IMG/VR virus record: IMGVR_UViG_3300045988_096244 | Strand: one strand, 5' to 3' | DNA from: a virus | Length of the DNA: 64,000 nt | Part shown: positions 4,393 to 64,000 of the stretch, in pieces | Position numbering within the stretch: the first letter of the stretch is position 1 | How the letters are laid out: the number at the start of each line of letters is the position of its first letter | Translations under genes and position numbers: made by a program | Notes under the pieces: generated by a model | Seen by the model: only the letters and a program-made list of their open reading frames with translations | Told to the model about the DNA's origin: nothing | Databases searched by the model: none

Positions 4393-4808
4393 ATGACTAA
4401 AGAAGAGTTAAAACCCAATAACGGAAGTTGTTAGGAAAAACGACATGAGGAATCGTCATGGTAAAAACCTCCATATACTCCTGGGTATTTTGGATTATAT
4501 AGATTCAAATATATCTTCTTATGATACCGATGGCAATGTAGTATTGAAAAAAGAGGTTCAAACTGTTAGGTACTGATGAGAATGGTGATACTTATCTACT
4601 TATTGCCTTAAACCGTTATCCTAGCGAAGACGGTAGTAATAAATATGCTACCGAGGTAGGTTCTACTAAAATACATCTGACTCTGAATACCCGTGAGGAA
4701 TCTAAATAGGGTAACAAGGTTCAGGTAGATACTCCAAGTGGAGAAAAAACTCTGATATATTCAGAGGAGACCCCAAGAATAAAGAATTCAATTAACCTTA
4801 ATCAATAA
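4393..4808 (+). pseudogene. interrupted ~138-codon ORF (two frame changes plus one in-frame TAG) immediately upstream of the sheath gene
   Basis: Pieces: 4393-4434 (MTKEELKPNNGSC*), 4412/4445-4576 (..MRNRHGKNLHILLGILDYIDSN..VRY*), 4548-4709 (..TDENGDTYLLIALNRYPSEDG..ESK-TAG), 4710-4808 (GNKVQVDTPSGEK..NLNQ*). Confidence 0.45.
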
Positions 4809-4812
4809 CAAT

Positions 4813-21410: not shown

Positions 21411-21552
21411 TAATAAGTAACCACTTGTATGAATTTTTATCAAAATATTTCACCGTCTGTGTTCAAGTTAGTTCAAAGATGAGCTCAGGGAACTATATTA
21501 TCTAGCAGATACTATTGGTTATACACTTATGAATATTATATAATATATATAT

Positions 21553-23665: not shown

Positions 23666-24193
23666 ATGAAACTCAATAGCAATATCAAAGGTTTTCCTTT
23701 ATACCATGTCACTAAATATGGAAAGGTATATAATATAAAGCGCAGTCGTGAAGTAACCATACATCCACACTATCGTACCGGTAGAAATATAGTTCATCTG
23801 TACTCTAATGGGAAAAGGTATAATCTGAAAGTATACAGGTTAGTAGCCGAGGCCTATATACCTAATCCGGAAAATAAGCCCTGTGTATGTCATAAGGATA
23901 ACGACAAGTCTAACGATGGAGTAGAGAATTTATACTGGGGTACGTACAAAGAGAATTCTCAGCAGATGGTTAGAGAGGGTAGAAGTACAAAGGGCCAACA
24001 CCGCAAAGGTATTAAACAACCGAGATGTTTCAGAAATCCTCGTTCAGTACTCACTAAAGTTAGATATCAGACTTTATTAAAATGTATAGGTGATAAGACT
24101 AAACTAAAAGCTTTAGTTAAAGCTTGGGGTATATCAACACGCAGTATGAATAGATATGTACATAAAATAAAGACTGGGTATTATGAAGCTTAA
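23666..24193 (+). CDS. HNH homing endonuclease (NUMOD4 + HNH_3 + C-terminal HTH), intact copy
   Basis: GFPLYHVTKYGKVYN..YRLVAEAYIPNPENKPCVCHKDNDKSNDGVENLYWGTYKENSQQM; inserted between helicase-region genes and the primase. Confidence 0.8.
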   Translation: MKLNSNIKGFPLYHVTKYGKVYNIKRSREVTIHPHYRTGRNIVHLYSNGKRYNLKVYRLVAEAYIPNPENKPCVCHKDNDKSNDGVENLYWGTYKENSQQMVREGRSTKGQHRKGIKQPRCFRNPRSVLTKVRYQTLLKCIGDKTKLKALVKAWGISTRSMNRYVHKIKTGYYEA

Positions 24194-28535: not shown

Positions 28536-29111
28536 ATGGTTCAATTAGAGTTTACAAAGATTCGAGAGGTTAAATCCCCTAACCGAGCAAATGACGGGGA
28601 TGCCGGATTGGATTTCTACATCCCTCAGTTATCTGACCAAGATATTCTTAAGGTTGGAGAGAAAGGTGAAAATGACTTTTCTGGTATCAATCGGAAGATG
28701 TTTGGTAAAGGTTACATCAAACTGAAAGCATTGGGTACTGAAGATGTATATGTAGCAATTAAACCAGGTGGAAGACTTCTCATTCCTTCTGGTATAAAGG
28801 TACTTATCAATCCAAAAGAGTCCATGCTCATGGCAGCAAATAAATCCGGGATTGCAACCAAAGAGGGTTTATCATTTACTGCCGAGATAGTGGATAGTCC
28901 ATATACTGGTGAAATGCACATCGGTATTCATAACGGTTCCCCCGAAGAGGTTTATATTCCTCTGAACCAAAACAAGAAGATAATGCAGTTTATACATGTA
29001 CCAATTATACTTTCAAACCCGGTAGAGATTACCAATGAAGAGTATGACGAGAAAGCCAAGAATTGGGGAACTCGAGGGGATAAGGGATTCGGTGCTCACG
29101 ATAATAAGTAA
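28536..29111 (+). CDS. dut: trimeric dUTPase-family enzyme (dUTPase/dCTPase type)
   Basis: All five motifs are recognisable: DAGLDF, NKSG, IVDSPYTGEM, KIMQFIHV, RGDKGFGAHD. Confidence 0.8.
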   Translation: MVQLEFTKIREVKSPNRANDGDAGLDFYIPQLSDQDILKVGEKGENDFSGINRKMFGKGYIKLKALGTEDVYVAIKPGGRLLIPSGIKVLINPKESMLMAANKSGIATKEGLSFTAEIVDSPYTGEMHIGIHNGSPEEVYIPLNQNKKIMQFIHVPIILSNPVEITNEEYDEKAKNWGTRGDKGFGAHDNK

Positions 29112-29116
29112 AAACC

Positions 29117-30022
29117 ATGGATAGCAGAGACATTAAAGAAGAACCAAAAAACATAGAGGGTAACAAATATCTCGAGGAGATATACTCTATGCAAAAGAAC
29201 CTCTTATCTGGTTATATGGGTATAGAGGGACTACCACAGTATCCCATAGATATCAATACAAAAGCTTCTCAAACCTTACTCAAGGACTTCACTGCACGGG
29301 TAATAGAGGAGTTATCAGAGGGATACGAATCTTTTCAAGCAGTGGATGGTATCATGCAGGACAGTCACCACAAGATTATGGCCGGTGATGACCTGGTATA
29401 CATTGAACTGCTTAATCACCTTCAGAATGCCAATGAGGAAAATGCCGATGCAGTACATTTCTTCGTTGAGTTGCTGATATATGCTAACATTCAACCCGAT
29501 GATATCAAGGCATACATGGTGAAGTGGGTAAGGGATAACAAATGCGAACAGAGTACGGTAGATTACTTTAACTCTATACGGAATGATATCCTAAATACTG
29601 CTCAATCCCTTGGAGTGAAGTGGTTGATGAATGAGAGAGATATAGAGGTAATCTTTGACAGCAACTCAACCAACTTATTGAAGTGGTATGAAGAGAAAGA
29701 CTCTGAAACTTTCCCTGAGTACAATGATAAGTTACTGAAAGGTGGTCATAAGTATAACCACGAAAACTATGCTCTTCAATATCCCTACATATTGTGGAAG
29801 ATAACTCACCACCTTAATATAGCCAGGAATTTCCTGAAGAACAAACCTTGGAAACAATCTCAGGTAATGACTCAGGAGTTAAAGTATCAGGCTGAGTTGG
29901 TGAAGGCTTTCATATACTTCTGTGGTTATCTTGGATGGATAGGAATGGATTCTAAGGAAGTGTTCTATATTTACTTCAAGAAAAATCACATAAACCTGTT
30001 CCGCCAAAAATCTAAGTATTAG
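29117..30022 (+). CDS. all-alpha NTP pyrophosphohydrolase (dimeric dUTPase / MazG-like)
   Basis: KDFTARVIEELSEGYESF and EENADAVHFFVELLIYANI resemble the dUTPase_2/MazG metal-binding helices. Confidence 0.55.
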   Translation: MDSRDIKEEPKNIEGNKYLEEIYSMQKNLLSGYMGIEGLPQYPIDINTKASQTLLKDFTARVIEELSEGYESFQAVDGIMQDSHHKIMAGDDLVYIELLNHLQNANEENADAVHFFVELLIYANIQPDDIKAYMVKWVRDNKCEQSTVDYFNSIRNDILNTAQSLGVKWLMNERDIEVIFDSNSTNLLKWYEEKDSETFPEYNDKLLKGGHKYNHENYALQYPYILWKITHHLNIARNFLKNKPWKQSQVMTQELKYQAELVKAFIYFCGYLGWIGMDSKEVFYIYFKKNHINLFRQKSKY

Positions 30023-32010: not shown

Positions 32011-32188
32011 TCCATACTTTGGTGTAGAAATATCCAGGAGCGAGTATAAAAATAGGTATGATAGAGATATTGAATTATCTATATCTACTAACGGTCATCA
32101 CTGGATAGGATTGCCAAATATGAATATCCAGGACCTGAAAGAACTACGAAAATCTATAAGAAAATATATTAAAGAAAACAAACAATGA
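31988..32188 (+). pseudogene. paralogue 2 of the tandem pair, with in-frame TAG at codon 4
   Basis: atg aaa caa TAG(31997-31999) aag aaa agt aat cca.. gives MKQ*KKSNPYFGVEIS..ELSISTNGHHWIGLPNMNIQDLKELRKSIRKYIKENKQ*; no alternative start after the TAG. Confidence 0.4.
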
Positions 32189-32955
32189 GAATATATTCGA
32201 ACCCCTATGAGTTAATGTCAGAGACGGCAAGAAACTTATGGGAAATGGGTAATGAGGTAAAACCCCGTACCTATCAAAACAAGGTAATAGAAGGCAATGA
32301 TGACTTCATTACAAAGGAACTCATCTGTGAGCAGTACTGTTTAACTCACATGGAAGACCCAGCTGCACTTTTTGTATTCACTAAGTCCAAAGATTGGGCA
32401 GAGGCAGAATTCGAAGAGAGAGTATGCGGTAGGATGGAAAATCCAGGTAAAGCATGGGAACTCCGTAAAAACGTTTGGGAAGAGTTTTTAGTTGATGGGT
32501 TCTTTGACTATACCTATGCAGAACGTATGAACGAGTCAGTGTTATACAAAGGTAAGGCATTCTCAAAACTCGAAGCAGTAATAGAATTGTTAAGGAATGA
32601 CAATGATACAAGAAAAGCCATATTAAATATATATGGTGAAGTCGGTTACCATGAGGACTGCGATTCAAACTATCTCGGTGGAGAAAAGAGAATACCGTGC
32701 TCCATGTATTACGACTTCCTCATCCGAGAGAATGCCCGAGGAGAAAAGCAACTCAATATATGTTATCACCAAAGGTCTTCTGATTTTGTAACCCACTTCG
32801 GTAATGATGTTTACCTGGCATGGAGACTCATGGAATATGTAGCTAGCGAGGTGGGAATCAAGCCTGGATATCTCTATCATACTATTGATAGTTTGCATAG
32901 TTATAAAAAAGACTGGGTGAAACTGAAGACCTCAATCCAAACCGAATTGAGATAA
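32185..32955 (+). CDS. thymidylate synthase (ThyA)-family enzyme, divergent
   Basis: RKAILNIYG.., catalytic-Cys context IPCSMYYDF, ICYHQRSSDFVTHFGNDVYLA.., TIDSLHSY parallel the ThyA motifs RR..saWNp / PCh..qF / yQRS.D..G.PFN / gd.HiY. Confidence 0.65.
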   Translation: MRIYSNPYELMSETARNLWEMGNEVKPRTYQNKVIEGNDDFITKELICEQYCLTHMEDPAALFVFTKSKDWAEAEFEERVCGRMENPGKAWELRKNVWEEFLVDGFFDYTYAERMNESVLYKGKAFSKLEAVIELLRNDNDTRKAILNIYGEVGYHEDCDSNYLGGEKRIPCSMYYDFLIRENARGEKQLNICYHQRSSDFVTHFGNDVYLAWRLMEYVASEVGIKPGYLYHTIDSLHSYKKDWVKLKTSIQTELR

Positions 32956-34844: not shown

Positions 34845-36413
34845 ATGGAGTCAAGATATGCTATACTAAAGAGTTTCTCACAAGTCAAGCGGCTTGTGAA
34901 AGCTTGTTTAAGAACTGGCCTAGCTTCCGTCGACTTCGAGACAAATGCTGAAGGTATCTATAACAAATCTTTCAAACCAACCATCCTATCAGTAACTTTT
35001 CAGGTAGGTTCTGGTGTATCAATCCCTTTATGTCATCATGAATATAACAACCCTCATTGGAAACGTTGGTTAAAGTATTTTGGTAGGCATGTGATTGAAA
35101 ATCCTAAAATAACTAAAGTAGGATGGAATCTGAAGTTTGACCTTCAGATATTCGAGTTATTTGGGATATATGTTAGAGGTACTGTTCTGGACGGAATGCT
35201 TATGAAGTATCTCCTAAATGAGGAGAAACCTAATGACCTGAAATCAATGGTTAGAAGGTATCTACCAGAACACGGAGATTACGAAAAGTCGGATAAGTTT
35301 GATAAGATACCATGGGACAAGAAACCATTGGAACCCTTATGCAAATACGGTTGCCAGGATACGGATTATACCTTAAGATTATCTATGTTCTTTGAGAGCA
35401 AGTTAATTGAGATAGGTATGTATCCATTATTTAGGCATTTGATAATGCCAGCATCCAGGGTACTCCAACATGCAGAGAAAACTGGGTTATACCTTGATAG
35501 GGAATTCAATCAGGAATTGCTTAAATCCTACAAGCCAAAGATTGACCAAGCAACTGCTAATTGCTTGAATCTTCCCAGAGTAAAGAAATTCTCTAGATGG
35601 CTTACCGAACAGAGAATAAGCAAATACCTGGAGTCCATAGAAAGTGAACTTGAAGATATGGATTATAGAGACCCTGCAAATAAGAGGAAGATAGCAAGTA
35701 GGGAACAAAAGATATCCAATATCAGGGCTGGAGTATTTACAACTAAGAAAGAACTTGAATTAACTCGAGAAGTAAACTTGGGCAGTCCTATTGATTTACC
35801 TTTATTATTGTACTCTAAAAAGGGATTCAACTTCCCGGTTATCAAGTATACTAAGGATAAGAAAACAAATAGGGATACTGATAAACCCAGTACCGATGAA
35901 GACACATTGGTAGAACTTCGGTTAACGGTTAAAGACCCTGAAAGTCCCAAAGCAATCTTCCTGGATAATCTTCTCGAGTTGAGAGGGTTAAAGAAAATGT
36001 ATACAACCTATATTGAGGGATGGCATGATAAAGTTCAGGATGATGACAGGATTCACGGGCAATTCAAAATCATTGGTACTACTTCTGGCCGTTTAAGTTG
36101 CATAAGTGGAGATACTAAAGTATTAACCCAGTATGGAGAAATACCCATTATAGATATTAAAGATTGGATTGGTGAAGGGTTGTGTGCCATGACTAAAGAG
36201 GGGTGGCAATTAATAGAAAACTTCATATATAAGGGTGTTAATGATATGTATGAAGTAACACTTGAGGATGGTACTTCTATTCAATGTACTTTAGACCATA
36301 AGTTTATAACCAATCAGGGGACTAAAAGATTAGGGGAAATTTACAATAAATACCGAAATACTATTGATTCTAAAGTTAAACTTTTAAGATATGTCCCAGA
36401 CCACGAACAATAG
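34845..36413 (+). CDS. polA: DNA polymerase I (family A), N-terminal part (3'-5' exonuclease and first half of the pol domain) fused to an N-terminal split-intein fragment
   Basis: ExoI motif SVDFETN; ..HGQFKIIGTTSGRLS then CISGDTKVLT..TLDHKF.. (intein blocks A/B), stop after 104 intein residues. Confidence 0.85.
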   Translation: MESRYAILKSFSQVKRLVKACLRTGLASVDFETNAEGIYNKSFKPTILSVTFQVGSGVSIPLCHHEYNNPHWKRWLKYFGRHVIENPKITKVGWNLKFDLQIFELFGIYVRGTVLDGMLMKYLLNEEKPNDLKSMVRRYLPEHGDYEKSDKFDKIPWDKKPLEPLCKYGCQDTDYTLRLSMFFESKLIEIGMYPLFRHLIMPASRVLQHAEKTGLYLDREFNQELLKSYKPKIDQATANCLNLPRVKKFSRWLTEQRISKYLESIESELEDMDYRDPANKRKIASREQKISNIRAGVFTTKKELELTREVNLGSPIDLPLLLYSKKGFNFPVIKYTKDKKTNRDTDKPSTDEDTLVELRLTVKDPESPKAIFLDNLLELRGLKKMYTTYIEGWHDKVQDDDRIHGQFKIIGTTSGRLSCISGDTKVLTQYGEIPIIDIKDWIGEGLCAMTKEGWQLIENFIYKGVNDMYEVTLEDGTSIQCTLDHKFITNQGTKRLGEIYNKYRNTIDSKVKLLRYVPDHEQ

Positions 36414-37445
36414 GCAAAAGGTATTTGAAGATAAATCTACTAGGGGTCCAAGGAGAAAATTAAAGCTAATAATAGAGGATGGTAAAAGGTATATAAAGAA
36501 AGAAGATCTTTTACATTACTTCTTTCAAGAGAATTGGAATATAGAAGACTTCAATTATCATTTTGGTATTGGCCATAGAATAGTGAGAGGTTCTCTATAT
36601 AAATGGTTTACTAGAGAGGAGATAGAGGAATCCCATAGAAAGAAGATTGCTAATAAACAAAGGGGTAGTAACAATTCTAATAGGGTTAATTGGTATAAGC
36701 CTCGTAAGCTTATACCTTTATTGGATTTAGAGGAAGCTATTAAAAAATCTACTTGTAAACGGGATTTGAAAGAAAGATTACAATTAACTACTTGGGAATT
36801 GTCTTCTATACAGCAATTCTATAATTTTAAGCTCCCTAATAAATCTTCTTTACTCAATACTAAACTCCAGTATTCTCTTTCTAAAGAAGATGTAAAACTC
36901 TTATGTAAAGTTATTACAGGAATGCAATTGGAAGACCTATTTTTCTCTAATACTCCTCAAGCTATCTACAAAATAGATTGTCTTGTTTGGGAACTTAAGA
37001 AGATTAACCGCTCTCTTAGAAGAGCTTTTAGGAAACCTATAGTAGCTCAGGGTATTAAGTTTTCTACTAATTTGATAGAATATAAATTCCACAAAGCTTT
37101 AGAAAAAATGGGTATAGAACATGAAATACAGTATTACATACCCGAACATAATATACACCTAGACTTTTTAATACAAGGTCACTACAACTTAGAATTAGAT
37201 GGAAATTTACATGAAAAAGAAGCAGATATGGATAGAGACTATGTTCTCAAATCCCTTGGCTATAAAGTTATACGATTAGATTTAAAAACCCTTGGTATCA
37301 CTAGATTTTCAAAAGAAAAGGAGGTAAGAAAATGTATAAAGAAGTTGGTATTACCCAAGTTAAATTCGTAGGTAGAAATGGGGTATATGATTTATCAGTT
37401 ATGAACTGTCATCAATTTGTGGCTAATAATATCTTAAATCACAAT
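36099..37445 (+). mobile_element. split intein (IntN 36099-36410, IntC 37332-37445) with an embedded free-standing homing endonuclease gene
   Basis: Cys1 codon tgc 36099-36101; IntC ends ..NNILHN, then Ser+1 at 37446. Removing it restores TTSGRLS-SSEPNLQQIP. Confidence 0.8.
36391..37371 (+). CDS. free-standing homing endonuclease, Vsr/DUF559-like PD-(D/E)XK C-terminal domain
   Basis: Different frame from both pol halves and overlaps both; very AT-rich; EHEIQYYIPEHNIHLDFLIQGHYNLELDGNLHEKEADMDRDYVLKSLGYKVIRL. Confidence 0.7.
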   Translation: MSQTTNNRQKVFEDKSTRGPRRKLKLIIEDGKRYIKKEDLLHYFFQENWNIEDFNYHFGIGHRIVRGSLYKWFTREEIEESHRKKIANKQRGSNNSNRVNWYKPRKLIPLLDLEEAIKKSTCKRDLKERLQLTTWELSSIQQFYNFKLPNKSSLLNTKLQYSLSKEDVKLLCKVITGMQLEDLFFSNTPQAIYKIDCLVWELKKINRSLRRAFRKPIVAQGIKFSTNLIEYKFHKALEKMGIEHEIQYYIPEHNIHLDFLIQGHYNLELDGNLHEKEADMDRDYVLKSLGYKVIRLDLKTLGITRFSKEKEVRKCIKKLVLPKLNS

Positions 37446-38480
37446 TCTAGTGAACCTAACCTTCAGCAAATACCTAAAACCTCCGTAGATGCTAACATAA
37501 AGAAACAGTTAGTAGCTCCTAAAGGAAAGTTATATATGGCACTTGACTACTCTCAGGCAGAGTTAAGAATCATGGCTCACCTTTCCGGGGATGAAACTTA
37601 TCTCGAGGCTTTTGCAAAGGGTCAGGACCCTCACCTTGCTATTGCAGCAAAGAAGTATGGTGTATCGTACGATGAAGCAAACCAAGCTTATAGTGACGAG
37701 CAACATCCAGATTACAAGGTTTGGAAGAACAGGAGAAAGCAGGCAAAGCAGATATGTTTTGGTATTATCTATGGTATTCAAAAGAAACTACTTGCAGTTA
37801 AACTGTCTGACCCAAAAGCGGGTATCATTGTAACACCCGATGAAGCTCAACAGCAATTGAATGAGTTCTTCCAGGAACACCCCAAGATTAAGAAGTTCAT
37901 GATTAACCAGGAGAAGGTACTGATTGAGCATGGATATATTAAATCTCTGTTTGGTAGGAAGAGAAGGTTACCACAAGTATATTCTGACAATGAGCAAGAG
38001 GCAGCATACGCAGTAAGATTATCAGTTAACATGCCATGTCAATCAGCTGCATCTGATATGACTCTGTTTGCATCCATACTCAATTATTGGAAAATACGAC
38101 AAGGTATACTTCCACCACTGCTTGAAACCTGTACAGTACATGATGCCGTTTATTACTTGGCAGACCCTGAGTATATAAATATATTCACGGTGTACAATAT
38201 ATGGGAGACTTGCCGTAACCCAAGTACAAAAGAGTATTTCAAATTTGAAATCAACGATGTAGATATGTCAATGGACTTTACTATCGGACGTTCGATGGCT
38301 GAGGAGTTGCCATATATACCTGGATATGACTATAGAAAAATGCTTCAACCCGATTTTAATGTGGAGAAGTATTTGGAAGAACACCGTAAGTGGAAAGACT
38401 TATCCATCAAGGAGTTCCCCAAGAAGTTCCCCGAATACTTTAAGAAGGATTACTCATGGAGAAAGGAAAAGGTGGTATAG
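37332..38480 (+). CDS. polA: C-terminal split-intein fragment fused to the DNA polymerase I C-terminal part (motifs A, B, C)
   Basis: MYKEVGITQVKF..VYDLSV..HQFVANNILNHN|SSEPNLQQIP; LDYSQAELRIMAH (A), RRKQAKQICFGIIYG (B), TVHDAV (C). Confidence 0.85.
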   Translation: MYKEVGITQVKFVGRNGVYDLSVMNCHQFVANNILNHNSSEPNLQQIPKTSVDANIKKQLVAPKGKLYMALDYSQAELRIMAHLSGDETYLEAFAKGQDPHLAIAAKKYGVSYDEANQAYSDEQHPDYKVWKNRRKQAKQICFGIIYGIQKKLLAVKLSDPKAGIIVTPDEAQQQLNEFFQEHPKIKKFMINQEKVLIEHGYIKSLFGRKRRLPQVYSDNEQEAAYAVRLSVNMPCQSAASDMTLFASILNYWKIRQGILPPLLETCTVHDAVYYLADPEYINIFTVYNIWETCRNPSTKEYFKFEINDVDMSMDFTIGRSMAEELPYIPGYDYRKMLQPDFNVEKYLEEHRKWKDLSIKEFPKKFPEYFKKDYSWRKEKVV

Positions 38481-41884: not shown

Positions 41885-42784
41885 ATGCTTATGGTAGTGG
41901 ACGGGAGTAACCTTGCTCACCGTTCATACCATAAGTTTAAGAATCTTAAAGCTAATAACGGAGCTGGTACCGGATTAGTATATGGATTCTTAAGAATACT
42001 CGGTTCATACCTTGTAAGGTTTAAACCAAGTCACGTGGTAATAACATTTGACACTCAGAAGAGTAAAGAGTCTAACTTCCGTAATGAATTACTTGAAGGT
42101 TACAAAGCTCACCGGAGTAAGATAAGTATGGATTATGAAGACTTCAATAAACAGTTAGCTCTGTTGAGAAGGATTTTAAGACTACTCGGGGTTCAGATGA
42201 TTCTAGATAAGAAAGGGTTAGGACATGAATCAGATGACTACATTGCCTGGCTGGCTATAAACCATCCTGGTAAATCTCTCATAATATCTTCAGATAAGGA
42301 CTTCTGTCAATTACTTGACAAACGAGTGAAGATATTCAATCCCAACAAAGAGACACTAATCCACAATCAAACCTGCAAGGAGATTATGGGTTATTCTGCT
42401 GAGGAATGCGTTGATTACCTAATACTTAACGGAGATAAGTCTGATGATATCCCGGGTTACTACGGTATGGGTGAAGTGAAGACCAAAGCTTTCCTGAACC
42501 AATTCGGGAGTATAGCTGACTTCATAGATGCAAGAGGAGCAGAGTTTAAGGGCATAGAAAGGGACCAGCTAGAAGAGTTATATAAGAAGAACAAGCCTCT
42601 TATAGATTTGAAAGCTGCTTTAACTCTATACCCGATAAAGAAAGTCCCTTGGGTAAAAGGATGTACTAATAATATAAGGAAAGATAGGTTATTCATGGTC
42701 CTCGATAAGTTCAATCTGAGGTCATTCAAGATACCTGACTTTTTGGAACCTTTCAAAAAACTACAAACGTATGTACAACGGTAA
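41885..42784 (+). CDS. 5'-3' exonuclease / flap endonuclease (T4 RNase H / PolI N-domain family)
   Basis: MLMVVDGSNLAHRSYH, VVITFD, YKAHR, IISSDKDFCQLL, GDKSDDIPGYYGMGEVKTKAFL; start moved to ATG 41885 after the recA stop. Confidence 0.8.
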   Translation: MLMVVDGSNLAHRSYHKFKNLKANNGAGTGLVYGFLRILGSYLVRFKPSHVVITFDTQKSKESNFRNELLEGYKAHRSKISMDYEDFNKQLALLRRILRLLGVQMILDKKGLGHESDDYIAWLAINHPGKSLIISSDKDFCQLLDKRVKIFNPNKETLIHNQTCKEIMGYSAEECVDYLILNGDKSDDIPGYYGMGEVKTKAFLNQFGSIADFIDARGAEFKGIERDQLEELYKKNKPLIDLKAALTLYPIKKVPWVKGCTNNIRKDRLFMVLDKFNLRSFKIPDFLEPFKKLQTYVQR

Positions 42785-43430
42785 ATATCAAATTATGTTT
42801 ACAGGTGTTTCCGGAGTAGGGAAAACAACCATTGCAAAGGAAGTATCGGAAATGTTGAAGATACCCTTTATATCTGGTTCATACTCTGACCTGGTACCAG
42901 AAACAAAAGACATGCCCCACGCTGACATGATTCAGCAGGATGCAAAGACAGTATTCATGCAGGATATGCAGGTACTCAATCTTCGTAACAAAGCCTTTCG
43001 AGGGGAGGATAACTTTGTAACTGACAGGTCATACTTTGACTCTGCAGCATACTTCATCAATAAGTTATCTCATAGGTTGGCAGAGTGTGACCTGGACCAT
43101 GCTATAGACTTATGCAAAATGCTACTTGGTCAACAGTGTACTCACTTGATATTCATACCATTCTCCTCAAGCTTTTTCAAGGACTGGGTAACCGAGGATA
43201 ACGGGAAACGAGTACTGTCAAAGTACTATCAGTTCCAAGTTTCTCAGGTTATGTATGGATTACTTGACCTGTGGGGGTACAAGCCAGATTCCAAAGTAAT
43301 GCAAGTCGTGGATGGAATACCAAGTACTGGTACTCTGGAAATAATGGGTTACAAGGTAAAGGTTCTCATATTAGATGAGATGAACTACGAAAAGAGAAAG
43401 CATCTAATAAGGAAATTTCTTCAGTTATGA
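42771..43430 (+). CDS. P-loop kinase (dNMP / nucleoside-kinase-like)
   Basis: IMFTGVSGVGKTTIAKEV Walker A near the N-terminus; 219 aa, kinase-sized. Confidence 0.45.
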   Translation: MYNGKYQIMFTGVSGVGKTTIAKEVSEMLKIPFISGSYSDLVPETKDMPHADMIQQDAKTVFMQDMQVLNLRNKAFRGEDNFVTDRSYFDSAAYFINKLSHRLAECDLDHAIDLCKMLLGQQCTHLIFIPFSSSFFKDWVTEDNGKRVLSKYYQFQVSQVMYGLLDLWGYKPDSKVMQVVDGIPSTGTLEIMGYKVKVLILDEMNYEKRKHLIRKFLQL

Positions 43431-44743
43431 AGGTAGATAAGGTGGATAATATTAAAGACTTCCCGGGATATTATATTTCTCGGGAAGGTTTTTTATATAG
43501 TAGGTATGATAAGGTAGGCCGTTTAACAGACACTTATAAGAGAAATAAGACATATGTAAGGTCTAACGGTTATGTACAAGTGGTATTGAAAATACGAAAG
43601 GAGAATAGATTACGTAGAGTATATATACATAGGTTAGTAGCTGAAACTTATATCCCTAATCCATATAATAATCCCTGTGTAGGACATAGGGATAATAATA
43701 GAGAGAATAACTCTGTAGAGAACCTATATTGGTGTACTCATAAGGAGAATACTCAACAGTGTATAGATGACGGTCGTATGAACTTTAGGCCTAAACTACA
43801 ATTCTTATTATTTTCAGACTTACACATATCAGACTATAAGAAGTTTCCAAGTAGAGAGCATAGTGGATTTAGAGTATTGGATATTATATCTCAACGATGT
43901 GAAAAGCTTGGAGTACCCGCAGTACATGTGGGTGATTTGATACATAGACCTGAGGTTATAAGCAATGAGTTATTGTACAGGTTAATAAAAGAGTTTAATC
44001 AATTATCTCATCGTAAGTGGAAATTATATTCTATATCGGGTAATCATTGTATAAGTACTCGTAGTGAAATAGGCCATAAACCAATTTCATGGGATAGAAC
44101 TTTATCTATGATATACCCATGGTTTAAGTGTATAGATTACAAAAGAGTTCATGTAGATAAATGTTATATATATGGAATACCTTATATAGACCATAATATA
44201 GGTTTATCTAAATACATATCAGAACTAAAGCTTACTGGCAGTAAAAGAAGTAAACACATACTCCTATTACATACTGACTATCCTGGGGCAAAGGATACGG
44301 ACGGTACAGTAGTAAACAGTGTAGAGAACCTGAATATAAATTCTATATCAAAGTTTGACTTAACTCTTTGTGGGCATATACACAAACCCCAGAGGTTAGG
44401 TAAGAAGGTGTATATGGTAGGTTCACCATATCAACAACGTAGAACTGATAAGAATTGTGAATTGGGCTACTGGGAAGTATACTCAGATATGTCACTTAAA
44501 TTTATACCGTTAAATGATTTTCCTAAATTTGTGGATGTATCATCAGAGGATGAAATTAAAGATGACGGCAATTATTATACTGTTGTTGCTAGCAAGTCTC
44601 GGGTTGTGGCGGTGGAAGATACCCCGCAAATAACTCGGGAACTTACTAAGAAATCCATGGTACGCAGATATATGAAAGCCAAAGGCATAAAAGACAAAGA
44701 AAAGAAGGCCACATTATTAAAGGTAATAAAGGAGGCAGAATGA
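43427..44743 (+). CDS. sbcD: HNH endonuclease domain fused in frame to an SbcD/Mre11 (gp47-like) nuclease
   Basis: aa 1-117 are NUMOD4/HNH (FPGYYISREGFLYS..HRLVAETYIPNPYNNPCVGHRDNNRENNSVENLYWCTHKEN). From M118 (ATG 43778): MNFRPKLQFLLFSDLHISDY, HVGDLIH, SGNHC, LLLHTD, CGHIH phosphoesterase motifs. Confidence 0.75.
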   Translation: MKVDKVDNIKDFPGYYISREGFLYSRYDKVGRLTDTYKRNKTYVRSNGYVQVVLKIRKENRLRRVYIHRLVAETYIPNPYNNPCVGHRDNNRENNSVENLYWCTHKENTQQCIDDGRMNFRPKLQFLLFSDLHISDYKKFPSREHSGFRVLDIISQRCEKLGVPAVHVGDLIHRPEVISNELLYRLIKEFNQLSHRKWKLYSISGNHCISTRSEIGHKPISWDRTLSMIYPWFKCIDYKRVHVDKCYIYGIPYIDHNIGLSKYISELKLTGSKRSKHILLLHTDYPGAKDTDGTVVNSVENLNINSISKFDLTLCGHIHKPQRLGKKVYMVGSPYQQRRTDKNCELGYWEVYSDMSLKFIPLNDFPKFVDVSSEDEIKDDGNYYTVVASKSRVVAVEDTPQITRELTKKSMVRRYMKAKGIKDKEKKATLLKVIKEAE

Positions 44744-51373: not shown

Positions 51374-51507
51374 GGGTCCTTCCGACTATAACAATTCCCG
51401 AGGGCTGCTATACTCTTAATTAGCTGAAGATAATACCTGGTAAAGATGGCATCAAGTTCATTCAGGTCAGCCCTCTTTTTAATCAAAAACCTTAATCAAT
51501 AAAAGAT

Positions 51508-51939
51508 ATGGCAACCAAGAAGAAAGACCAAGCAGCTGAGGCAAAGGATGCAGCAAAAGCAGAAACGAAAAAAGGCGGTAAGAAAGAACTGACCGCAGAA
51601 GAGAAGAAGGCCAAACGAGAGGCCATGAAGGAGCGACTCAAGAACCGGGCACCTGGTCAGCGACCCAACAGCAAACAGTGCGATATCATCGACCTGGGCG
51701 GTGGCAACGTTGCAAAGACCTTCGCCATGAACGTACGGAAGTACGGCGTTCTCATCACCTCAGTGGTTACCGACAAGGACGGCAAGGTGATTGCTGTCTC
51801 GAATGCAACCATCCCCGGAGTATCCGTCAAGTCCAAGAAGGAGCACGGCACGCTGGTCCCGAAGATGCCCGGCATGGGTAAGAAAGGGAAGGCAGCCGAG
51901 GCAGAGGATGATGAAGATGACGAAGACGATGAGGAATAG
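51508..51939 (+). CDS. Lys-rich N-terminus, small globular core, acidic tail protein
   Basis: MATKKKDQAAEAKDAAKAETKKGGKK.., core ..VLITSVVTDKDGKVIAVSNATIPGV.., tail AEAEDDEDDEDDEE; strong G/C-ending codon use. Confidence 0.7.
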   Translation: MATKKKDQAAEAKDAAKAETKKGGKKELTAEEKKAKREAMKERLKNRAPGQRPNSKQCDIIDLGGGNVAKTFAMNVRKYGVLITSVVTDKDGKVIAVSNATIPGVSVKSKKEHGTLVPKMPGMGKKGKAAEAEDDEDDEDDEE

Positions 51940-53387: not shown

Positions 53388-53430
53388 TAATTTGTATATT
53401 ATAATAATAAGTATTATATTTGCATAACGA
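53388..53430 (+). promoter_or_regulatory. Bacteroidota-type promoter TTTG-N20-TATATTTGCATAACGAAA
   Basis: TTTG 53391-53394; tatatttg 53415-53422; 21 nt before ATG 53443. Confidence 0.6.
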
Positions 53431-57969: not shown

Positions 57970-58812
57970 ATGAAAGAACAAAAGATAGTTCCAAGGTTTC
58001 CAAGAGGAATGGGAGTAACCCAATTAGCTCTACAGGCTAATGCTGGAGATGATGAAGCTCTCAAGAATCTGACCAAGTTCATTATCCATACCTGGATTGT
58101 CAACAACGGGAAATTATGGGCAAAGGTTTATTCCGTAAATGAACTCGCGGATTTCTTGAAATGTGAACCAGCAATTATTCAGATGCAAATGAAACAAACG
58201 TTTCTAGACAACGGTTTATTTGACCGTAGCAAGATGAATGAGATTGCTGATTCTCTTATGGGAGCTTGCATATCATGGGCACTTGAAGACCGTATGGAAG
58301 TAAGCCAGCAGGTTCAAATACTCAGGGATTCTCAGGGCGGAAGATATGCTCCATTCATCACCTCAGAAGTCAATAAGGCCCTTGGATTGAAACAGCAATC
58401 TACAACTTCTCTTCAGAGTTTAGTAAGGGCAGTAACTGGAGGGGGTACCGTGAATATCTTTGCTCAACAGAACAATCAATTCAATAATGGTGCCCAAGAA
58501 GAGCAGACTTTAACTAGAGATGAAGCCATGGAAATGATTCAAAGGGAGTTGGCTGACAAGGGTGGTATAAAGGAAATTGAATATGTAGAGAACCAATATG
58601 ACTTCAAAGAACTACCTGTTGTAGTTGCAACCAAACAAGATGGCAACAGGGGTGAGAAAGAAGGATTAACCCTTAAAAACGGAGAACTCGATAGCGTAAC
58701 AGGGGACTACCATGGTGCCTTAAAAGTTTTTGACGAAGACCATCACCAAATCCGACGAGAGATAGAAGAAGGAATAGCTTACGAAGAAGTAGACCCAGAA
58801 ATCCAAGATTAG
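57970..58812 (+). CDS. hypothetical protein (280 aa)
   Basis: Long ORF; possible N-terminal HTH (VNELADFLKCEPAIIQ); no confident family call. Confidence 0.5.
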   Translation: MKEQKIVPRFPRGMGVTQLALQANAGDDEALKNLTKFIIHTWIVNNGKLWAKVYSVNELADFLKCEPAIIQMQMKQTFLDNGLFDRSKMNEIADSLMGACISWALEDRMEVSQQVQILRDSQGGRYAPFITSEVNKALGLKQQSTTSLQSLVRAVTGGGTVNIFAQQNNQFNNGAQEEQTLTRDEAMEMIQRELADKGGIKEIEYVENQYDFKELPVVVATKQDGNRGEKEGLTLKNGELDSVTGDYHGALKVFDEDHHQIRREIEEGIAYEEVDPEIQD

Positions 58813-62204: not shown

Positions 62205-62533
62205 AACAAGAAGAATCTAGAGAGTTAAGGAATCTCTCCATGAATCAACTCAATGCAAAGTTATCTGAACTCTATAAGGAACTTCCGAGAAGGAATCCTA
62301 AGTACTCTTTCGAAAGACCTTACAGGAATCATCTCCTAAGGCAAATCAACCAAATCAAATACGAACAAACCCTTAAAGGAAAGGGGTTAAGGTCACAAGG
62401 AGTCTGGATAGAATCAGGATACACTCACCAAGGAACCAAGTCAGGAAGATTCTCTTCAGGATATCACTCCTCAGAATTATCCCTATCCAACCCCCCAAAA
62501 GAAGTTCTACCCCCAACACAAATAAAACCATGA
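62201..62533 (+). CDS. hypothetical protein (110 aa)
   Basis: Start set at ATG 62201 (MKQEESRELRNLSMNQL..) rather than track start 62096, which overlaps the small upstream ORF. Confidence 0.45.
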   Translation: MKQEESRELRNLSMNQLNAKLSELYKELPRRNPKYSFERPYRNHLLRQINQIKYEQTLKGKGLRSQGVWIESGYTHQGTKSGRFSSGYHSSELSLSNPPKEVLPPTQIKP

Positions 62534-62679
62534 AAAGAAAACCTAAAACCATATCCAAGGAAAAGGCCATAGTCATAGCCTCCAACCATAACAACCTCCC
62601 AATCCAAATCGCAAAGGGATATACAGAATCCGAACTAAGGGAAGTATTAAGGCATCTGAACCTAAAGCCAGGCTTCTAA
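62530..62679 (+). CDS. small hypothetical protein (49 aa)
   Basis: MKRKPKTISKEKAIVIASNHNNLPIQIAKGYTESELREVLRHLNLKPGF; ATGA overlap. Confidence 0.4.
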   Translation: MKRKPKTISKEKAIVIASNHNNLPIQIAKGYTESELREVLRHLNLKPGF

Positions 62680-62802
62680 TACAACCCCCAAACAAGAATA
62701 AATTCAAATATCCATATACATAACCATAATATATACATCATACCTATAGAATATTCATAAGGTAATATACATATAATATAAACCATCAATCATATATGGC
62801 TT

Positions 62803-63520
62803 TTAGGATTAGCTTTTATCTTAGAAGCCTTTAGTTTGACTGTTAAGATAGGGCAAAAGTTAACAAGCAGTCATTGTGACAGGTCAGGACAACGAAAAAG
62901 TCCAAGGGCCATAAAATCAGGTTAGGGCAAATTTTTTGGTTAAGGCAATATTAGGGCCTTACGGTGTACCCTAAGAGCTCTGGAGCTATCTATGTTACTA
63001 TACGTATTAGCTAAGTCGACTTAGGGCCCTAAGACCAGGAACAAGGTCCTAAAAGCACCTTTAAGGTACCTAAACCCCTACCTTATTCAAGTCTATATAT
63101 ATATATATAATATAAGTATATTAAGGATAAGGCTTAAGGCAGTAGCTAAGGCCTTTTCGATAAAGAGACATTAGGCCCCCCTGACTCTTGATATCTACAG
63201 CTTGACTCTATATTCATATTGGTACACTGATGGTACCTAAGATGGGCCTTAATCCCAAGCCTTAAAGAGTACAATCTATATTATATATATATATATGCGA
63301 GTCTTTTAGGTCATTTTGGAACAGGTGTCTAAAATCGATATGCCAGGAATAGAGTATTGGAGATTTGATTTCTCAAGTTAAGGCTGGTTTAAGGCACATT
63401 TAGGGTACCTTAAAAGGCCTTTTTGTGGTAGGTTAAGGTACCTTAATATAGCCTTCATATTATATAAGGATTGGCTTTTAGTGGCCTTTGGGATTATGGC
63501 CTTGGGCCTTATGAAGGCCT
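62803..63520. repeat. non-coding array of about 20 or more TTA(A/G)GG(C/G/T) half-sites in both orientations (iteron/operator-like)
   Basis: TTAGGGC 62922, TTAAGGC 62940, TTAGGGC 62951, TTAAGGC 63134, 63378, 63389; GCCTTAA 63246, 63259. Perfect 14-bp palindromes CTTAGGGCCCTAAG 63020-63033 and TTAAGGTACCTTAA 63433-63446. Confidence 0.75.
63095..63296. repeat. perfect 20-bp inverted repeat of (AT)7AATATA flanking a 162-bp iteron-containing core
   Basis: atatatatatatataatata 63095-63114; its reverse complement tatattatatatatatatat 63277-63296. Confidence 0.85.
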
Positions 63521-63562
63521 CCAATTATTATTTGCATATATAATATATTATATCTATATTTG
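63506..63562 (+). repeat. 57-nt direct repeat copy 1 (promoter cassette)
   Basis: gccttatgaaggcctccaattattatttgcatatataatatattatatctatatttg, identical to 63829-63885. Confidence 0.9.
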
Positions 63563-63570
63563 CATAACGA
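63527..63570 (+). promoter_or_regulatory. Bacteroidota-type promoter TTATTTGCATA-N-TATATTTGCATAACGAAA
   Basis: TTTG 63531-63534; tatatttg 63555-63562; 43 nt before ATG 63605. Confidence 0.6.
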
Positions 63571-63604
63571 AAGATAAATAATAAACTCTAAAACATTTAA
63601 GGCT

Positions 63605-63829
63605 ATGCTTAATTATAAAGACTTCACCACTGCCCTGGGAATTATCTCCAAACACCATTCAACCGAATTGGCCATCAATACTCCTCGCAATAACTTTGTA
63701 GGGTATATGGGCCAGACTAGATTCAGGTTGCATATTAAGAAATGCGTACCCGCCGTAATCCATAACCTTGTTAAGGAAGGTTTCATATTAAGTATGGGAC
63801 CTGAAGGATTAGAGGTAGATAAAATCTAG
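63605..63829 (+). CDS. hypothetical protein
   Basis: 74-aa ORF between the two promoter cassettes. Confidence 0.5.
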   Translation: MLNYKDFTTALGIISKHHSTELAINTPRNNFVGYMGQTRFRLHIKKCVPAVIHNLVKEGFILSMGPEGLEVDKI

Positions 63830-63885
63830 CCTTATGAAGGCCTCCAATTATTATTTGCATATATAATATATTATATCTATATTTG
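63829..63885 (+). repeat. 57-nt direct repeat copy 2 (promoter cassette)
   Basis: Identical to 63506-63562; starts at the last base of the preceding stop codon. Confidence 0.9.
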
Positions 63886-63893: not shown

Positions 63894-63898
63894 TAAAA

Positions 63899-63934
63899 CA
63901 AATTAAACCAATTAAACAAATTAAACAAATTAAA
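63899..63934 (+). repeat. 4 tandem copies of the 9-nt unit CAAATTAAA (one variant CCAATTAAA) in a 5' leader
   Basis: 63899-63907, 63908-63916, 63917-63925, 63926-63934; ATG at 63937. Confidence 0.8.
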
Positions 63935-63936
63935 TT

Positions 63937-64000
63937 ATGAATTACTCGGTACACTCTTTTAAGGTTTATATTTATAAGGTTAATCCTGATAGTTGGATTA
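63937..64000 (+). CDS. 5' end of a CDS running off the window (MNYSVHSFKVYIYKVNPDSWI..)
   Basis: ATG 63937 behind a promoter cassette; open to the window end. Confidence 0.4.
   Translation, partial: MNYSVHSFKVYIYKVNPDSWI

What the first reader, a model, noticed from the sequence alone, without database searches (positions are those of the whole stretch)
62680..63604. 0.9-kb non-coding array of TTA(A/G)GG half-sites, perfect palindromes and an (AT)n inverted repeat: candidate origin or protein-binding centre
This is the largest non-coding stretch in the window. It contains about 20 or more copies of TTAGGGC / TTAAGGC / TTAAGGT and their complements. Several are paired into palindromes: CTTAGGGCCCTAAG 63020-63033, TTAAGGTACCTTAA 63433-63446, and imperfect ones at 63059-63073 and 63399-63414. 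A perfect 20-bp inverted repeat of (AT)7AATATA (63095-63114 / 63277-63296) brackets a 162-bp iteron-bearing core. An AT-rich stretch with three (A)ATATACAT repeats (62705-62790) lies upstream. Dimer-type binding sites plus easily melted AT tracts are the classic architecture of a replication origin. A partition, packaging or global-repressor site is also possible. No protein in the window is an obvious cognate binder.
Basis: partly seen in the sequence, partly recalled or inferred. Interest (0 to 1): 0.7.

Follow-up and report, generated by a model that had tools for sequence, protein, structure and literature searches.

The report
Conserved protein-binding repeat array, gut phage
A 0.8-kb gene-free stretch packed with short, helically spaced TTA(A/G)GG sites and two easily melted (TA)n tracts is conserved in a very common family of human-gut Bacteroidales phages; it is most likely a docking platform for a DNA-binding protein, with a replication origin as the best guess for its function, but no function has been demonstrated.

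Summary
62680-63604 is the largest ORF-free gap in the window. It holds 18 strict TTARGG sites against about 1 expected, and 34 relaxed ARGG sites (logo TTARGGY). It also holds palindromes found nowhere else in the window and two (TA)n tracts that rank first and third among the least stable 20-mers in 64 kb.

The array is conserved in about 60 related metagenomic phage contigs. Its architecture persists in lineages with only 55% TerL identity, while the flanking small genes turn over. Three features point to a protein recognition site: A/G toggling at motif position 4, an exact 11-bp unit indel, and about 11-bp phasing (p about 0.003).

Two blocks (62976-63019 and 63297-63377) are nearly invariant, and their role is unexplained. 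There is no ORF, Rfam hit, RNA covariation, DnaA box, host-derived core or partition ATPase.

GC skew does not mark the site as an origin. No initiator was found. The one co-conserved neighbour is an uncharacterised 49-aa gene.

Best reading: a unique cis-acting nucleoprotein locus, most likely the replication origin (about 0.4). Rivals are a regulatory hub, a pac site, a centromere and an RNA gene. The right end (63505-63562) is an ordinary PeSL-like terminator-promoter cassette. The phage fits published descriptions of 'Flandersviridae'/Gubaphage.

The parts
62530..62679 (+). 49-aa gene directly upstream. It is the only neighbour co-conserved with the array, which makes it a candidate (untested) binder. 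Its invariant 3' end itself contains CTAAGGG and TTAAGGC.
   Evidence: tblastn finds it next to the array in L130, L059, L060 and L061. The C-terminus SELREVLRHLNLKPGF is invariant in 24 homologues. Substitutions between relatives are synonymous. No Pfam or PDB match.
62680..62790 (.). G-poor, AT-rich zone with three ATATACAT copies (62714, 62731, 62765).
   Evidence: A similar G-poor zone rich in ATACAT precedes the array in the distant lineage L170. It is the second least stable 100-mer in the window.
62798..62839 (+). Intrinsic terminator of the upstream early operon: a 12-bp stem with G-U pairs (valid on the + strand RNA only), an 8-nt loop and a T-run.
   Evidence: conserved in relatives.
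62848..62975 (.). Left motif cluster. It contains TAGGGCA at 62849, the conserved GGCCATAAAATC at 62907-62918, TTAGGGC at 62922, TTAAGGC at 62940, TTAGGGC at 62951 (11-bp spacing from the previous site) and the inverted CCCTAA at 62969.
   Evidence: The sequence here is variable between relatives, but the motif count is maintained.
62976..63019 (.). Ultra-conserved block A (core GCTATCTnTGTTACTATACGTAnTAGCTA, containing the palindrome ATACGTAT). Role unknown.
   Evidence: Invariant columns in A1 and A2. The exact pattern occurs in 31 IMG/VR contigs. It has no other copy in the window.
63020..63033 (.). Perfect palindrome CTTAGGGCCCTAAG: two half-sites with 0-bp spacing.
   Evidence: conserved in relatives.
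63059..63076 (.). Imperfect palindrome TTTAAGGTACCTAAACC: half-sites with 2-bp spacing.
63094..63114 (.). Left (TA)n tract, the least stable 20-mer of the 64-kb window.
   Evidence: Its length varies between relatives.
63115..63276 (.). 162-bp core. Plus-oriented sites lie at 63121-63152 (TTAAGG, ATAAGG, TTAAGG, CTAAGG; a perfect (TTAAGG)3 in some relatives). A roughly 60-bp centre (63160-63220) is replaced by unrelated sequence in some relatives. Minus-oriented sites lie at 63232-63265.
   Evidence: I11: 63121-63140 against 63246-63265, 80% complementary; two central alleles.
63277..63296 (.). Right (TA)n tract, the third least stable 20-mer of the window.
63297..63377 (.). Ultra-conserved block B (core GGTGTCTAAAATCGATATGCCAGGAATAGAG invariant). 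Role unknown.
   Evidence: About 100% identity over 63326-63375 in 53 loci. 26 sequence variants were listed. It persists in lineages with 67-69% TerL identity. No RNA covariation. Among 185,579 genomes it was found only in 3 mis-binned phage fragments.
63378..63446 (.). Right motif cluster. Three direct 11-bp units start at 63378, 63389 and 63400. It also holds the palindromes TTAGGGTACCTTAA (63400-63413), AAAAGGCCTTTT (63411-63422) and TTAAGGTACCTTAA (63433-63446).
   Evidence: One exact 11-bp unit is deleted in several relatives, and A/G toggles at the same sites.
63447..63504 (.). Variable spacer rich in GGCC, present in only a subset of relatives.
   Evidence: coverage drops to about 30 of 55 loci.
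63505..63562 (+). PeSL-like cassette: stem-loop GGCCTTATGAAGGCC plus a Bacteroidetes-type promoter (TTTG at 63531, TAnnTTTG ending at 63562). It is repeated exactly at 63829-63885. It is not part of the array proper.
   Evidence: (D1, 57 nt, 100%).

Best explanation
The region is a single-copy, cis-acting nucleoprotein assembly site of an uncultured Bacteroidales myophage that fits the published 'Flandersviridae'/Gubaphage descriptions. A sequence-specific protein, not yet identified, recognises the half-site TTARGGY. It occupies about 20-35 sites arranged as palindromes, tandem hexamers and direct repeats spaced about 11 bp apart, so they lie on one face of the helix. The protein therefore probably wraps or bends the DNA. 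Two (TA)n tracts, the most easily melted DNA in the window, flank a 162-bp core bounded by inward-facing site clusters. The most likely function is the origin of early, origin-dependent replication: binding-induced torsional stress opens a (TA)n tract, where the phage DnaB-type helicase and DnaG-type primase are loaded. Shown: the anatomy, statistical enrichment, phasing, conservation and uniqueness. Inferred: that a protein binds, that melting occurs, and that the outcome is replication initiation.
For: - Enrichment and uniqueness: 18 sites against 1 expected, and the palindromes occur nowhere else in the window.
- Conservation: about 60 relatives carry about 20 sites at the same place. The array is 72-75% identical in lineages with 67-69% TerL identity. 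The same architecture exists at 55% TerL identity: AAGGCA/AAGGTACC sites, paired (TA)n tracts about 150 bp apart, a G-poor ATACAT zone, and the same downstream promoter. Meanwhile the flanking small genes are replaced.
- Signatures of protein recognition: A/G toggles at motif position 4 at fixed sites, and there is an exact 11-bp unit indel. Motif columns are 73-80% identical against 65-67% for non-motif columns. Same-strand spacing peaks at 11-13, 22-23, 32-34 and 43-44 bp. Vector strength is 0.47-0.53 at 11-11.5 bp, with p about 0.003 in both the window and L130.
- Meltable DNA: the (TA)n tracts are the first and third least stable 20-mers of the 64 kb.
- Transcriptional setting: the array lies between a terminator and the only host-type promoter of the region, which points away from it.
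- Available machinery: the phage encodes DnaB-type helicase, DnaG-type primase, PolA, SSB, a UvsX-like recombinase and SbcCD, but no recognised initiator.
Against: - No initiator-like or DNA-binding domain was found in any scanned ORF.
- The adjacent 74-aa gene is not co-inherited with the array.
- No DnaA box (up to 1 mismatch) and no IHF consensus is present.
- GC skew puts the cumulative maximum, not the minimum, near the array, and the minimum at a strand switch 4.6 kb away.
- T4-type phages classically use promoter/R-loop origins rather than iteron origins (own knowledge).
- The half-site spacing in the palindromes is inconsistent (0 or 2 bp).
- The two near-invariant blocks A and B are not explained by this model.
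- Phasing is not detectable in the most distant lineage.
- The same anatomy would serve a pac site, a centromere or a regulatory hub equally well.
Confidence: 0.4

Rival explanations
1. Regulatory or architectural hub. The sites bind a phage (or host) transcription factor or nucleoid-like protein that insulates, silences or times the neighbouring early promoters (63531, 63854 and onward) during the early-to-middle switch. There is no role in replication.
For: - The array abuts an early promoter and sits inside the early region, which holds eight Bacteroidetes-type promoters between 53 and 64 kb.
- The top Foldseek hits for the downstream 74-aa protein are the DNA-binding domain of T4 MotA, although the match is not significant (E 0.15-0.5, TM 0.34).
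- The 49-aa gene upstream is co-conserved with the array.
Against: - The other seven early promoters have no TTARGG sites, so this is not a general early operator.
- 20-35 sites spread over 600 bp, plus (TA)n tracts, is far more than an operator needs.
- The 74-aa gene is absent in lineages that keep the array.
Confidence: 0.2
2. Packaging initiation (pac) site. Small terminase multimerises on the two inward-facing hexamer clusters and the DNA is cut in the sequence-unconstrained centre of the 162-bp core, as at P1 pac.
For: - Site clusters bound a roughly 160-bp core whose central 60 bp is freely replaceable.
- Contig ends of at least six independent assemblies fall inside the array.
Against: - The contig ends are scattered over about 560 bp. 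They sit at palindromes, k-mer repeats and (TA)n tracts, and one carries a Nextera adapter, which are the marks of assembly artefacts.
- TerL is T4/Ackermannviridae-type, a type classically linked to headful packaging without a unique pac site (own knowledge).
- The array lies about 6.4 kb from TerL and is separated from it by an opposite-strand gene block.
- Even read coverage was reported for one 'Flandersviridae' genome (PMC8008677).
Confidence: 0.12
3. Centromere or plasmid-maintenance site. The phased repeats are bound by a centromere-binding protein that segregates, or simply retains, an extrachromosomal phage genome in a carrier state.
For: - Arrays of short repeats in direct and inverted orientation with 11-bp phasing, placed next to a promoter, resemble the R1 parC and omega-heptad centromeres (own knowledge).
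- The 'Flandersviridae' authors raised P1-like episomal persistence because closed contigs are so common (PMC8008677).
Against: - No ParA-type deviant Walker A motif occurs in any + strand ORF of the window.
- No partition-related Pfam or PHROG hit occurs in the window or in the 10 kb downstream.
- The published analysis also found no partition genes.
- There is no nucleotide similarity to 72,556 plasmids.
Confidence: 0.1
4. Non-coding RNA gene or genes. The ultra-conserved blocks A and B encode structured or regulatory RNA, and the TTARGG repeats are RNA-protein or RNA-RNA contact motifs (a sponge RNA).
For: - Blocks A and B are more conserved than the neighbouring proteins.
- Whole-region folding z-scores are -3.0 and -2.7.
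- A few substitutions in a small hairpin (63358-63376) are compatible with G-U pairing.
Against: - No Rfam match reaches threshold.
- The consensus fold of block B is -5.3 kcal/mol with 0 compensatory pairs.
- No promoter points into the region, and a terminator precedes it.
- Motifs occur on both strands (12 on +, 6 on -). As loop-less palindromes they make sense as duplex DNA, not as RNA.
- The folding z-scores are inflated by those palindromes.
Confidence: 0.06

Closest known systems
Iteron-type replication origins (lambda ori, P1 oriR, plasmids R6K/pSC101; T4 oriE with its iterons). From own knowledge.
   Same: Multiple copies of a short binding site, helically phased. An adjoining AT-rich unwinding element. 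One copy per genome. Copy number changes by whole repeat units.
   Different: The core here is only 6-7 bp (11-bp unit) rather than 17-22 bp. Sites occur in both orientations and as palindromes. No initiator gene lies in or next to the array. There are no DnaA or IHF sites. Two long invariant non-repeat blocks are interspersed among the sites.
SV40/polyomavirus core origin (GAGGC pentamers in inverted pairs, flanked by an AT tract and a melting palindrome). From own knowledge.
   Same: Very short (5-7 bp) G-rich half-sites in inverted arrays, flanked by easily melted AT DNA.
   Different: That origin is about 64 bp and is bound by an SF3 helicase-initiator. No such protein was detected here, and this array is about 10 times longer.
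Phage P1 pac site (162 bp; clusters of TGATCA/G hexamers on both sides of the cleavage region). From own knowledge.
   Same: Hexamer clusters bound a roughly 160-bp segment whose centre is not sequence-constrained.
   Different: P1 pac lies inside the terminase (pacA) gene and depends on Dam methylation. This array is 6.4 kb from TerL, has additional clusters outside the core, and sits in a phage with a T4-type TerL.
Plasmid centromeres bound by small ribbon-helix-helix proteins (R1 parC 11-bp iterons; pSM19035 omega heptads in direct and inverted orientation). From own knowledge.
   Same: Arrays of short repeats, about 11-bp phasing, mixed orientations, next to a promoter.
   Different: No partition NTPase gene and no recognisable centromere-binding protein. 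The genome otherwise looks lytic.
PeSL (promoter-early stem-loop) cassettes of T4-type phages (PMC2839356, PMC4122927).
   Same: The right-hand end (63505-63562) is a terminator-like stem-loop fused to an early promoter. It is repeated exactly 323 bp downstream and flanks mosaic small early genes.
   Different: The promoter is of the Bacteroidetes TTTG/TAnnTTTG type rather than sigma-70. The cassette explains only the last roughly 60 bp, not the TTARGG array.
Injection-stop-signal region of phage T5 (a large conserved non-coding stretch of repeats and palindromes beside the pre-early genes). From own knowledge; not checked in the library.
   Same: A kilobase-scale conserved non-coding region of repeats and palindromes embedded among early genes, with an unresolved mechanism.
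   Different: T5 is a siphovirus with fixed ends and long terminal repeats. Nothing here indicates fixed ends or two-step injection.

Membership tests
Iteron-type replication origin | Several copies of one binding motif, helically phased | tested here: met
   18 strict and 34 relaxed sites. Spacing peaks at 11-13, 22-23, 32-34 and 43-44 bp. p about 0.003 in the window and in L130.
Iteron-type replication origin | Adjacent AT-rich DNA-unwinding element | tested here: met
   The (TA)n tracts at 63094 and 63276 are the first and third least stable 20-mers of the 64 kb.
Iteron-type replication origin | Cognate initiator gene encoded in or beside the origin | tested here: not met
   No Rep-like or DNA-binding domain in the neighbours. 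The 74-aa gene is not co-inherited. The 49-aa gene is co-conserved but uncharacterised.
Iteron-type replication origin | Host-factor sites (DnaA boxes, IHF) | tested here: not met
   No DnaA box (up to 1 mismatch) after 61 kb, and no IHF consensus in 62600-63650.
Iteron-type replication origin | Strand-compositional switch at the site | tested here: inconclusive
   The cumulative GC-skew maximum lies about 61 kb. The minimum lies at a gene-strand switch 4.6 kb downstream in MT121964. Skew follows transcription.
Iteron-type replication origin | Replication actually initiates there | not testable with these tools
   Needs marker-frequency analysis, 2D gels or an ori-trap assay.
T4-type R-loop origin (oriF/oriG) | A promoter whose transcript runs into a downstream unwinding element | tested here: inconclusive
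   No Bacteroidetes-type promoter points into either (TA)n tract. The phage's middle-promoter motif is unknown. Blocks A and B are unique in the window, so they are not a recurrent promoter motif.
pac site | Virion DNA ends, or the start of a packaging series, map to the site | not testable with these tools
   Only indirect evidence: contig ends cluster here, but at scattered positions typical of assembly breaks.
pac site | Located in or next to the small-terminase gene | tested here: not met
   TerL is about 6.4 kb downstream, beyond an opposite-strand block.
Partition centromere | Linked partition NTPase and centromere-binding protein genes | tested here: not met
   No KGGxxK[ST] motif. No Par-related Pfam or PHROG hit. 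None was reported for the family (PMC8008677).
Structured non-coding RNA | Match to a known family, or covariation supporting a fold | tested here: not met
   Rfam scans at gathering threshold and at E-value up to 10 returned only chance-level hits. There were 0 compensatory pairs in block B.
attP integration site | Core identical to a bacterial attB, plus an integrase gene | tested here: not met
   The block B pattern was found in only 3 MAG contigs, all of them collinear phage fragments. No integrase was seen in the scanned ORFs. Block A was not scanned against bacterial genomes.
PeSL terminator-promoter cassette (right end only) | Stem-loop immediately followed by an early promoter, repeated between mosaic early genes | tested here: met
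   Exact 57-nt copies at 63506-63562 and 63829-63885. The promoter pattern occurs at eight sites. Flanking genes are present or absent among relatives.

The most novel reading that the evidence does not exclude
The array is a self-contained maintenance module, combining an origin with a centromere-like retention site. It would be serviced by a tiny, unrecognised phage protein (for example the co-conserved 49-aa product) or by a host factor. It would let these 'lytic-looking' and extremely prevalent gut phages persist as episomes in Bacteroidales, which would explain why they assemble so often as closed circles from whole-community metagenomes. A further unexcluded variant is a DNA decoy that titrates a host DNA-binding protein.
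Probability: 0.12. Interest if true: 0.8.

Novelty: new member of a known kind. Interest (0 to 1): 0.45.

Why it matters
This phage group fits 'Flandersviridae'/Gubaphage, among the most prevalent viruses of the human gut. It has no cultured representative in the literature I could search, and its lifestyle is unresolved (PMC8008677, PMC7895897).

The roughly 20-kb 'unknown' part of its genome has been described only as hypothetical ORFs. This work pins down one conserved, unique cis-element in it, with a defined motif (TTARGGY), defined unwinding tracts and two invariant blocks. That gives a concrete handle for several experiments:
- ori-trap or pac-trap plasmids in Bacteroides;
- DNA pull-downs to identify the binder;
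- a PCR or k-mer marker for the family (block B is about 100% conserved);
- a test of the episomal-persistence hypothesis.

It also explains why assemblies of these phages tend to break at this locus.

Tried and rejected
- Hidden or recoded ORF: rejected. TAA stops are abundant in all six frames.
- Known RNA family or structured RNA: nothing above threshold, and no covariation in block B (one search failed because I used wrong coordinates).
- Host-derived sequence or attB: block B occurs only in phage fragments mis-binned into MAGs.
- Homology to GenBank phages or plasmids at the nucleotide level: none. MT121964 is related, but its record starts inside the array.
- DnaA or IHF sites: none.
- General early-promoter operator: other early promoters lack the motif.
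- Blocks A and B as recurrent promoter motifs: only chance-level k-mer sharing with the rest of the window.
- Physical genome end: contig ends cluster here but at scattered positions, at palindromes and (TA)n tracts, and one carries an adapter. I attribute them to assembly breaks.
- 74-aa downstream protein as cognate binder: the AF2 model has pLDDT 80. Its best Foldseek hits are the T4 MotA C-terminal domain, but the matches are not significant, there is no sequence support, and the gene is absent from lineages that keep the array.
- 280-aa conserved early protein (57970-58812): it belongs to a large family (359 clusters). AF2 gives pLDDT 76 and a helical/coiled-coil model. There is no annotated structural or sequence match, so there is no basis to link it to the array.
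- Pfam/PHROG scans of about 60 ORFs for DNA-binding or initiator domains found none beyond the replisome genes.
- Literature searches for the motif, the accession and cultured relatives found nothing relevant.
Full report
**Context.** The window is a phage genome segment with nearly all genes on the + strand.
- 0-20 kb encodes a contractile-tail module: sheath, tape measure and baseplate.
- 21-50 kb encodes a replication, recombination and nucleotide-metabolism module. It includes DnaB-type helicase, DnaG-type primase, a split PolA, SSB, a UvsX-like recombinase and SbcCD. It also carries dUTPase and a thymidylate-synthase-like protein.
- There are three tRNAs.
- From about 50 kb onward come small ORFs without annotation.
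- Eight promoters of the Bacteroidetes type (TTTG-N~20-TAnnTTTG) lie between 53.4 and 63.9 kb, all rightward.
- TerL of close relatives is T4/Ackermannviridae-like.
- The closest GenBank records are human-faecal metagenomic phages.

This layout matches the published descriptions of 'Flandersviridae' (PMC8008677) and Gubaphage (PMC7895897). I did not compare the window directly with named genomes of those groups. The lineage is very abundant: single proteins are seen on up to 100 contigs of 77-80 kb.

**The observation.**
- 62680-63604 is the largest ORF-free gap and cannot be rescued by stop-codon reassignment.
- Strict TTARGG occurs 18 times against 1.04 expected from the rest of the window (P about 1e-16). 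Simulations with the region's own dinucleotide content give a mean of 3.3. No other 925-bp window exceeds 6.
- The most enriched hexamers are TAGGGC (72-fold), TTAGGG (29-fold), TAAGGC (26-fold), AAGGCC (23-fold) and TTAAGG (20-fold).
- Aligning all 34 ARGG occurrences in 62840-63510 gives the logo TTARGGY.
- The three TTARGG-NN-CCYTAA palindromes are the only ones in 64 kb.
- The two (TA)n tracts are the first and third least stable 20-mers of the window.
- However, any two (TA)n tracts are mutually complementary, and their lengths vary among relatives. The 'perfect inverted repeat' should therefore be read as 'two TA microsatellites about 160 bp apart'.

**Anatomy, left to right.**
1. A 49-aa gene (62530-62679).
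2. A G-poor, AT-rich zone with three ATATACAT copies.
3. A terminator (62798-62839) with G-U pairs that work only on the + strand RNA.
4. A left cluster of sites.
5. Invariant block A (62976-63019).
6. Two palindromes.
7. The left (TA)n tract.
8. A 162-bp core with +-oriented sites on its left and --oriented sites on its right. Its central roughly 60 bp is swapped for unrelated sequence in some relatives.
9. The right (TA)n tract.
10. Invariant block B (63297-63377).
11. A right cluster of three 11-bp direct units and three palindromes.
12. A variable spacer.
13. A stem-loop plus promoter cassette (63505-63562), repeated exactly at 63829-63885.

The last item is the equivalent of the PeSL cassettes of T4-type phages (PMC2839356, PMC4122927). 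It is not part of the array.

**Comparative evidence.**
- Searches with the flanking proteins, with TerL and with DNA patterns retrieved more than 150 loci.
- Every relative that covers the position has about 20 sites in the 750 bp upstream of the promoter, against about 2/kb elsewhere.
- The region is as conserved as the neighbouring genes, or more so, and 63326-63375 is about 100% identical in 53 loci.
- Lineages with 67-69% TerL identity keep the array at 72-75% nucleotide identity, with blocks A and B almost unchanged.
- A lineage at 55% TerL identity has a non-alignable but architecturally equivalent region. It has a G-poor ATACAT zone, AAGGCA/AAGGTACC sites in opposed clusters, two (TA)n tracts about 150 bp apart and the same promoter.
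- The genes on both sides differ between lineages. The element is therefore inherited for its own sake.
- At individual sites A and G interchange at motif position 4, and one exact 11-bp unit is present or absent.
- Motif columns are more conserved than inter-motif columns: 73-80% against 65-67%.
- Same-strand spacings cluster at multiples of about 11 bp. The periodicity is significant in the window and in L130 (p about 0.003) but not in the most distant lineage.

Together these are the expected marks of a degenerate protein-recognition site arrayed on one face of the helix.

**What it is not.**
- Not a known or structured RNA. There is no Rfam family. Block B shows no covariation: 0 compensatory pairs and -5.3 kcal/mol. 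No promoter points into the region.
- Not host-derived. Block B matched nothing host-derived among 185,579 genomes; the three hits are collinear phage fragments in MAG bins.
- No similarity to phage or plasmid records.
- No DnaA or IHF sites.
- Not a general early operator.
- Blocks A and B are unique in the window.

**Origin versus the rivals.** The architecture fits an origin: phased sites, opposed clusters, flanking unwinding tracts, a single copy, and a transcription-free gap. That is my leading reading, but several tests did not support it.
It therefore tracks transcription and composition.
- No initiator was found.
- T4-type replisomes classically start from R-loops rather than iterons (own knowledge).

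For the rivals:
- A pac role is weakened by the T4-type TerL, the 6.4-kb distance from the terminase genes, the even coverage reported for one family member, and the scattered, artefact-like contig ends.
- A centromere role lacks any partition ATPase.
- A purely regulatory role does not need 20-35 sites and TA tracts.

None of these is excluded, hence a confidence of 0.4 for the origin.

**Candidate binders.**
- The 74-aa downstream protein gives a confident small alpha/beta model. Its best, non-significant Foldseek hits are the T4 MotA DNA-binding domain. The gene is missing from lineages that retain the array.
- The 280-aa early protein is conserved across lineages and belongs to a large uncharacterised family. 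Its model matches nothing annotated.
- The 49-aa gene directly upstream is the only neighbour co-conserved with the array down to the 67-69% lineage. Its C-terminus is invariant, and the corresponding DNA itself contains TTAAGGC. It has no detectable homologue of known function.

**Verdict.** This is a real, conserved, previously undescribed cis-element in a highly prevalent gut-phage family. It is of a familiar architectural kind (a phased binding-site array plus unwinding tracts), its function is not established, and an origin is the most likely function. The two invariant blocks remain unexplained by any model considered.

Noticed in passing
window 63505-63562 and 63829-63885; promoters at 53391, 55601, 55713, 58826, 60109, 60875, 63531, 63854: Terminator-like stem-loop (GGCCTTATGAAGGCC) fused to a Bacteroidetes-type promoter (TTTG-N~20-TAnnTTTG). 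It occurs as exact 57-nt copies flanking mosaic small early genes, a Bacteroidales counterpart of the PeSL cassettes of T4-type phages.
   Followed up: partly
window 1-62679: Strong avoidance of GATC (14 observed against 217 expected) and GCGC (10 against 93.5). GGCC is not avoided. This suggests pressure from host restriction systems with those specificities.
   Followed up: no
window 34845-38480: PolA is split into two ORFs (34845-36413 and 37332-38480) by an intervening 326-aa ORF with a DUF559/endonuclease-like domain. An HNH domain is fused to the N-terminus of SbcD (43427-44743), and a free-standing HNH gene lies at 23666-24193.
   Followed up: no
window 28536-30022, 32185-32955, 42771-43430: dUTPase, a MazG-like pyrophosphohydrolase, a thymidylate-synthase-like protein and a thymidylate-kinase-like protein occur together. 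This hints at a modified thymidine in the phage DNA, as in Ackermannviridae. A C5-cytosine methyltransferase sits upstream of the terminase genes in relatives (L034:14491-15561).
   Followed up: no
window 57970-58812: A 280-aa early protein is conserved across distant lineages and belongs to a large uncharacterised family (359 clusters at 50% identity). It has an invariant N-terminal RIPRPxGxT-like motif. The AF2 model is a compact N-terminal domain plus a long coiled coil, with no annotated structural match.
   Followed up: yes
window 21444-21552: The divergent intergenic gap upstream of dnaB holds the second least stable 20-mer of the window and a GTTCAA direct repeat. It is an alternative origin candidate that I did not analyse comparatively.
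   Followed up: no
L049:1-41 (IMGVR_UViG_3300045988_088760): This public contig begins with a Nextera adapter (…GTCTCGTGGGCTCGGAGATGTGTATAAGAGACAG) joined to the right (TA)n tract. MT121964 and at least four other contigs also start or end inside the array, so assemblies of this phage family break here.
   Followed up: partly
window 63896-63934: Tandem repeat (AAACAAATT) x 4.3 in the leader of the gene that starts at 63938.
   Followed up: no
L034:16393-18888 versus L057:6510-8018: TerL is 831 aa in many relatives but 502 aa in MT121964, and tblastn aligns it in two pieces. This indicates an intein or a homing-endonuclease insertion in the longer form.
   Followed up: no
window 4790-4812 and 51485-51507: The same AACCTTAATCAATAA element sits about 10 nt upstream of the start codons of the tail-sheath gene and of the gene at 51508. 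It may be a shared translation or late-expression signal.
   Followed up: no
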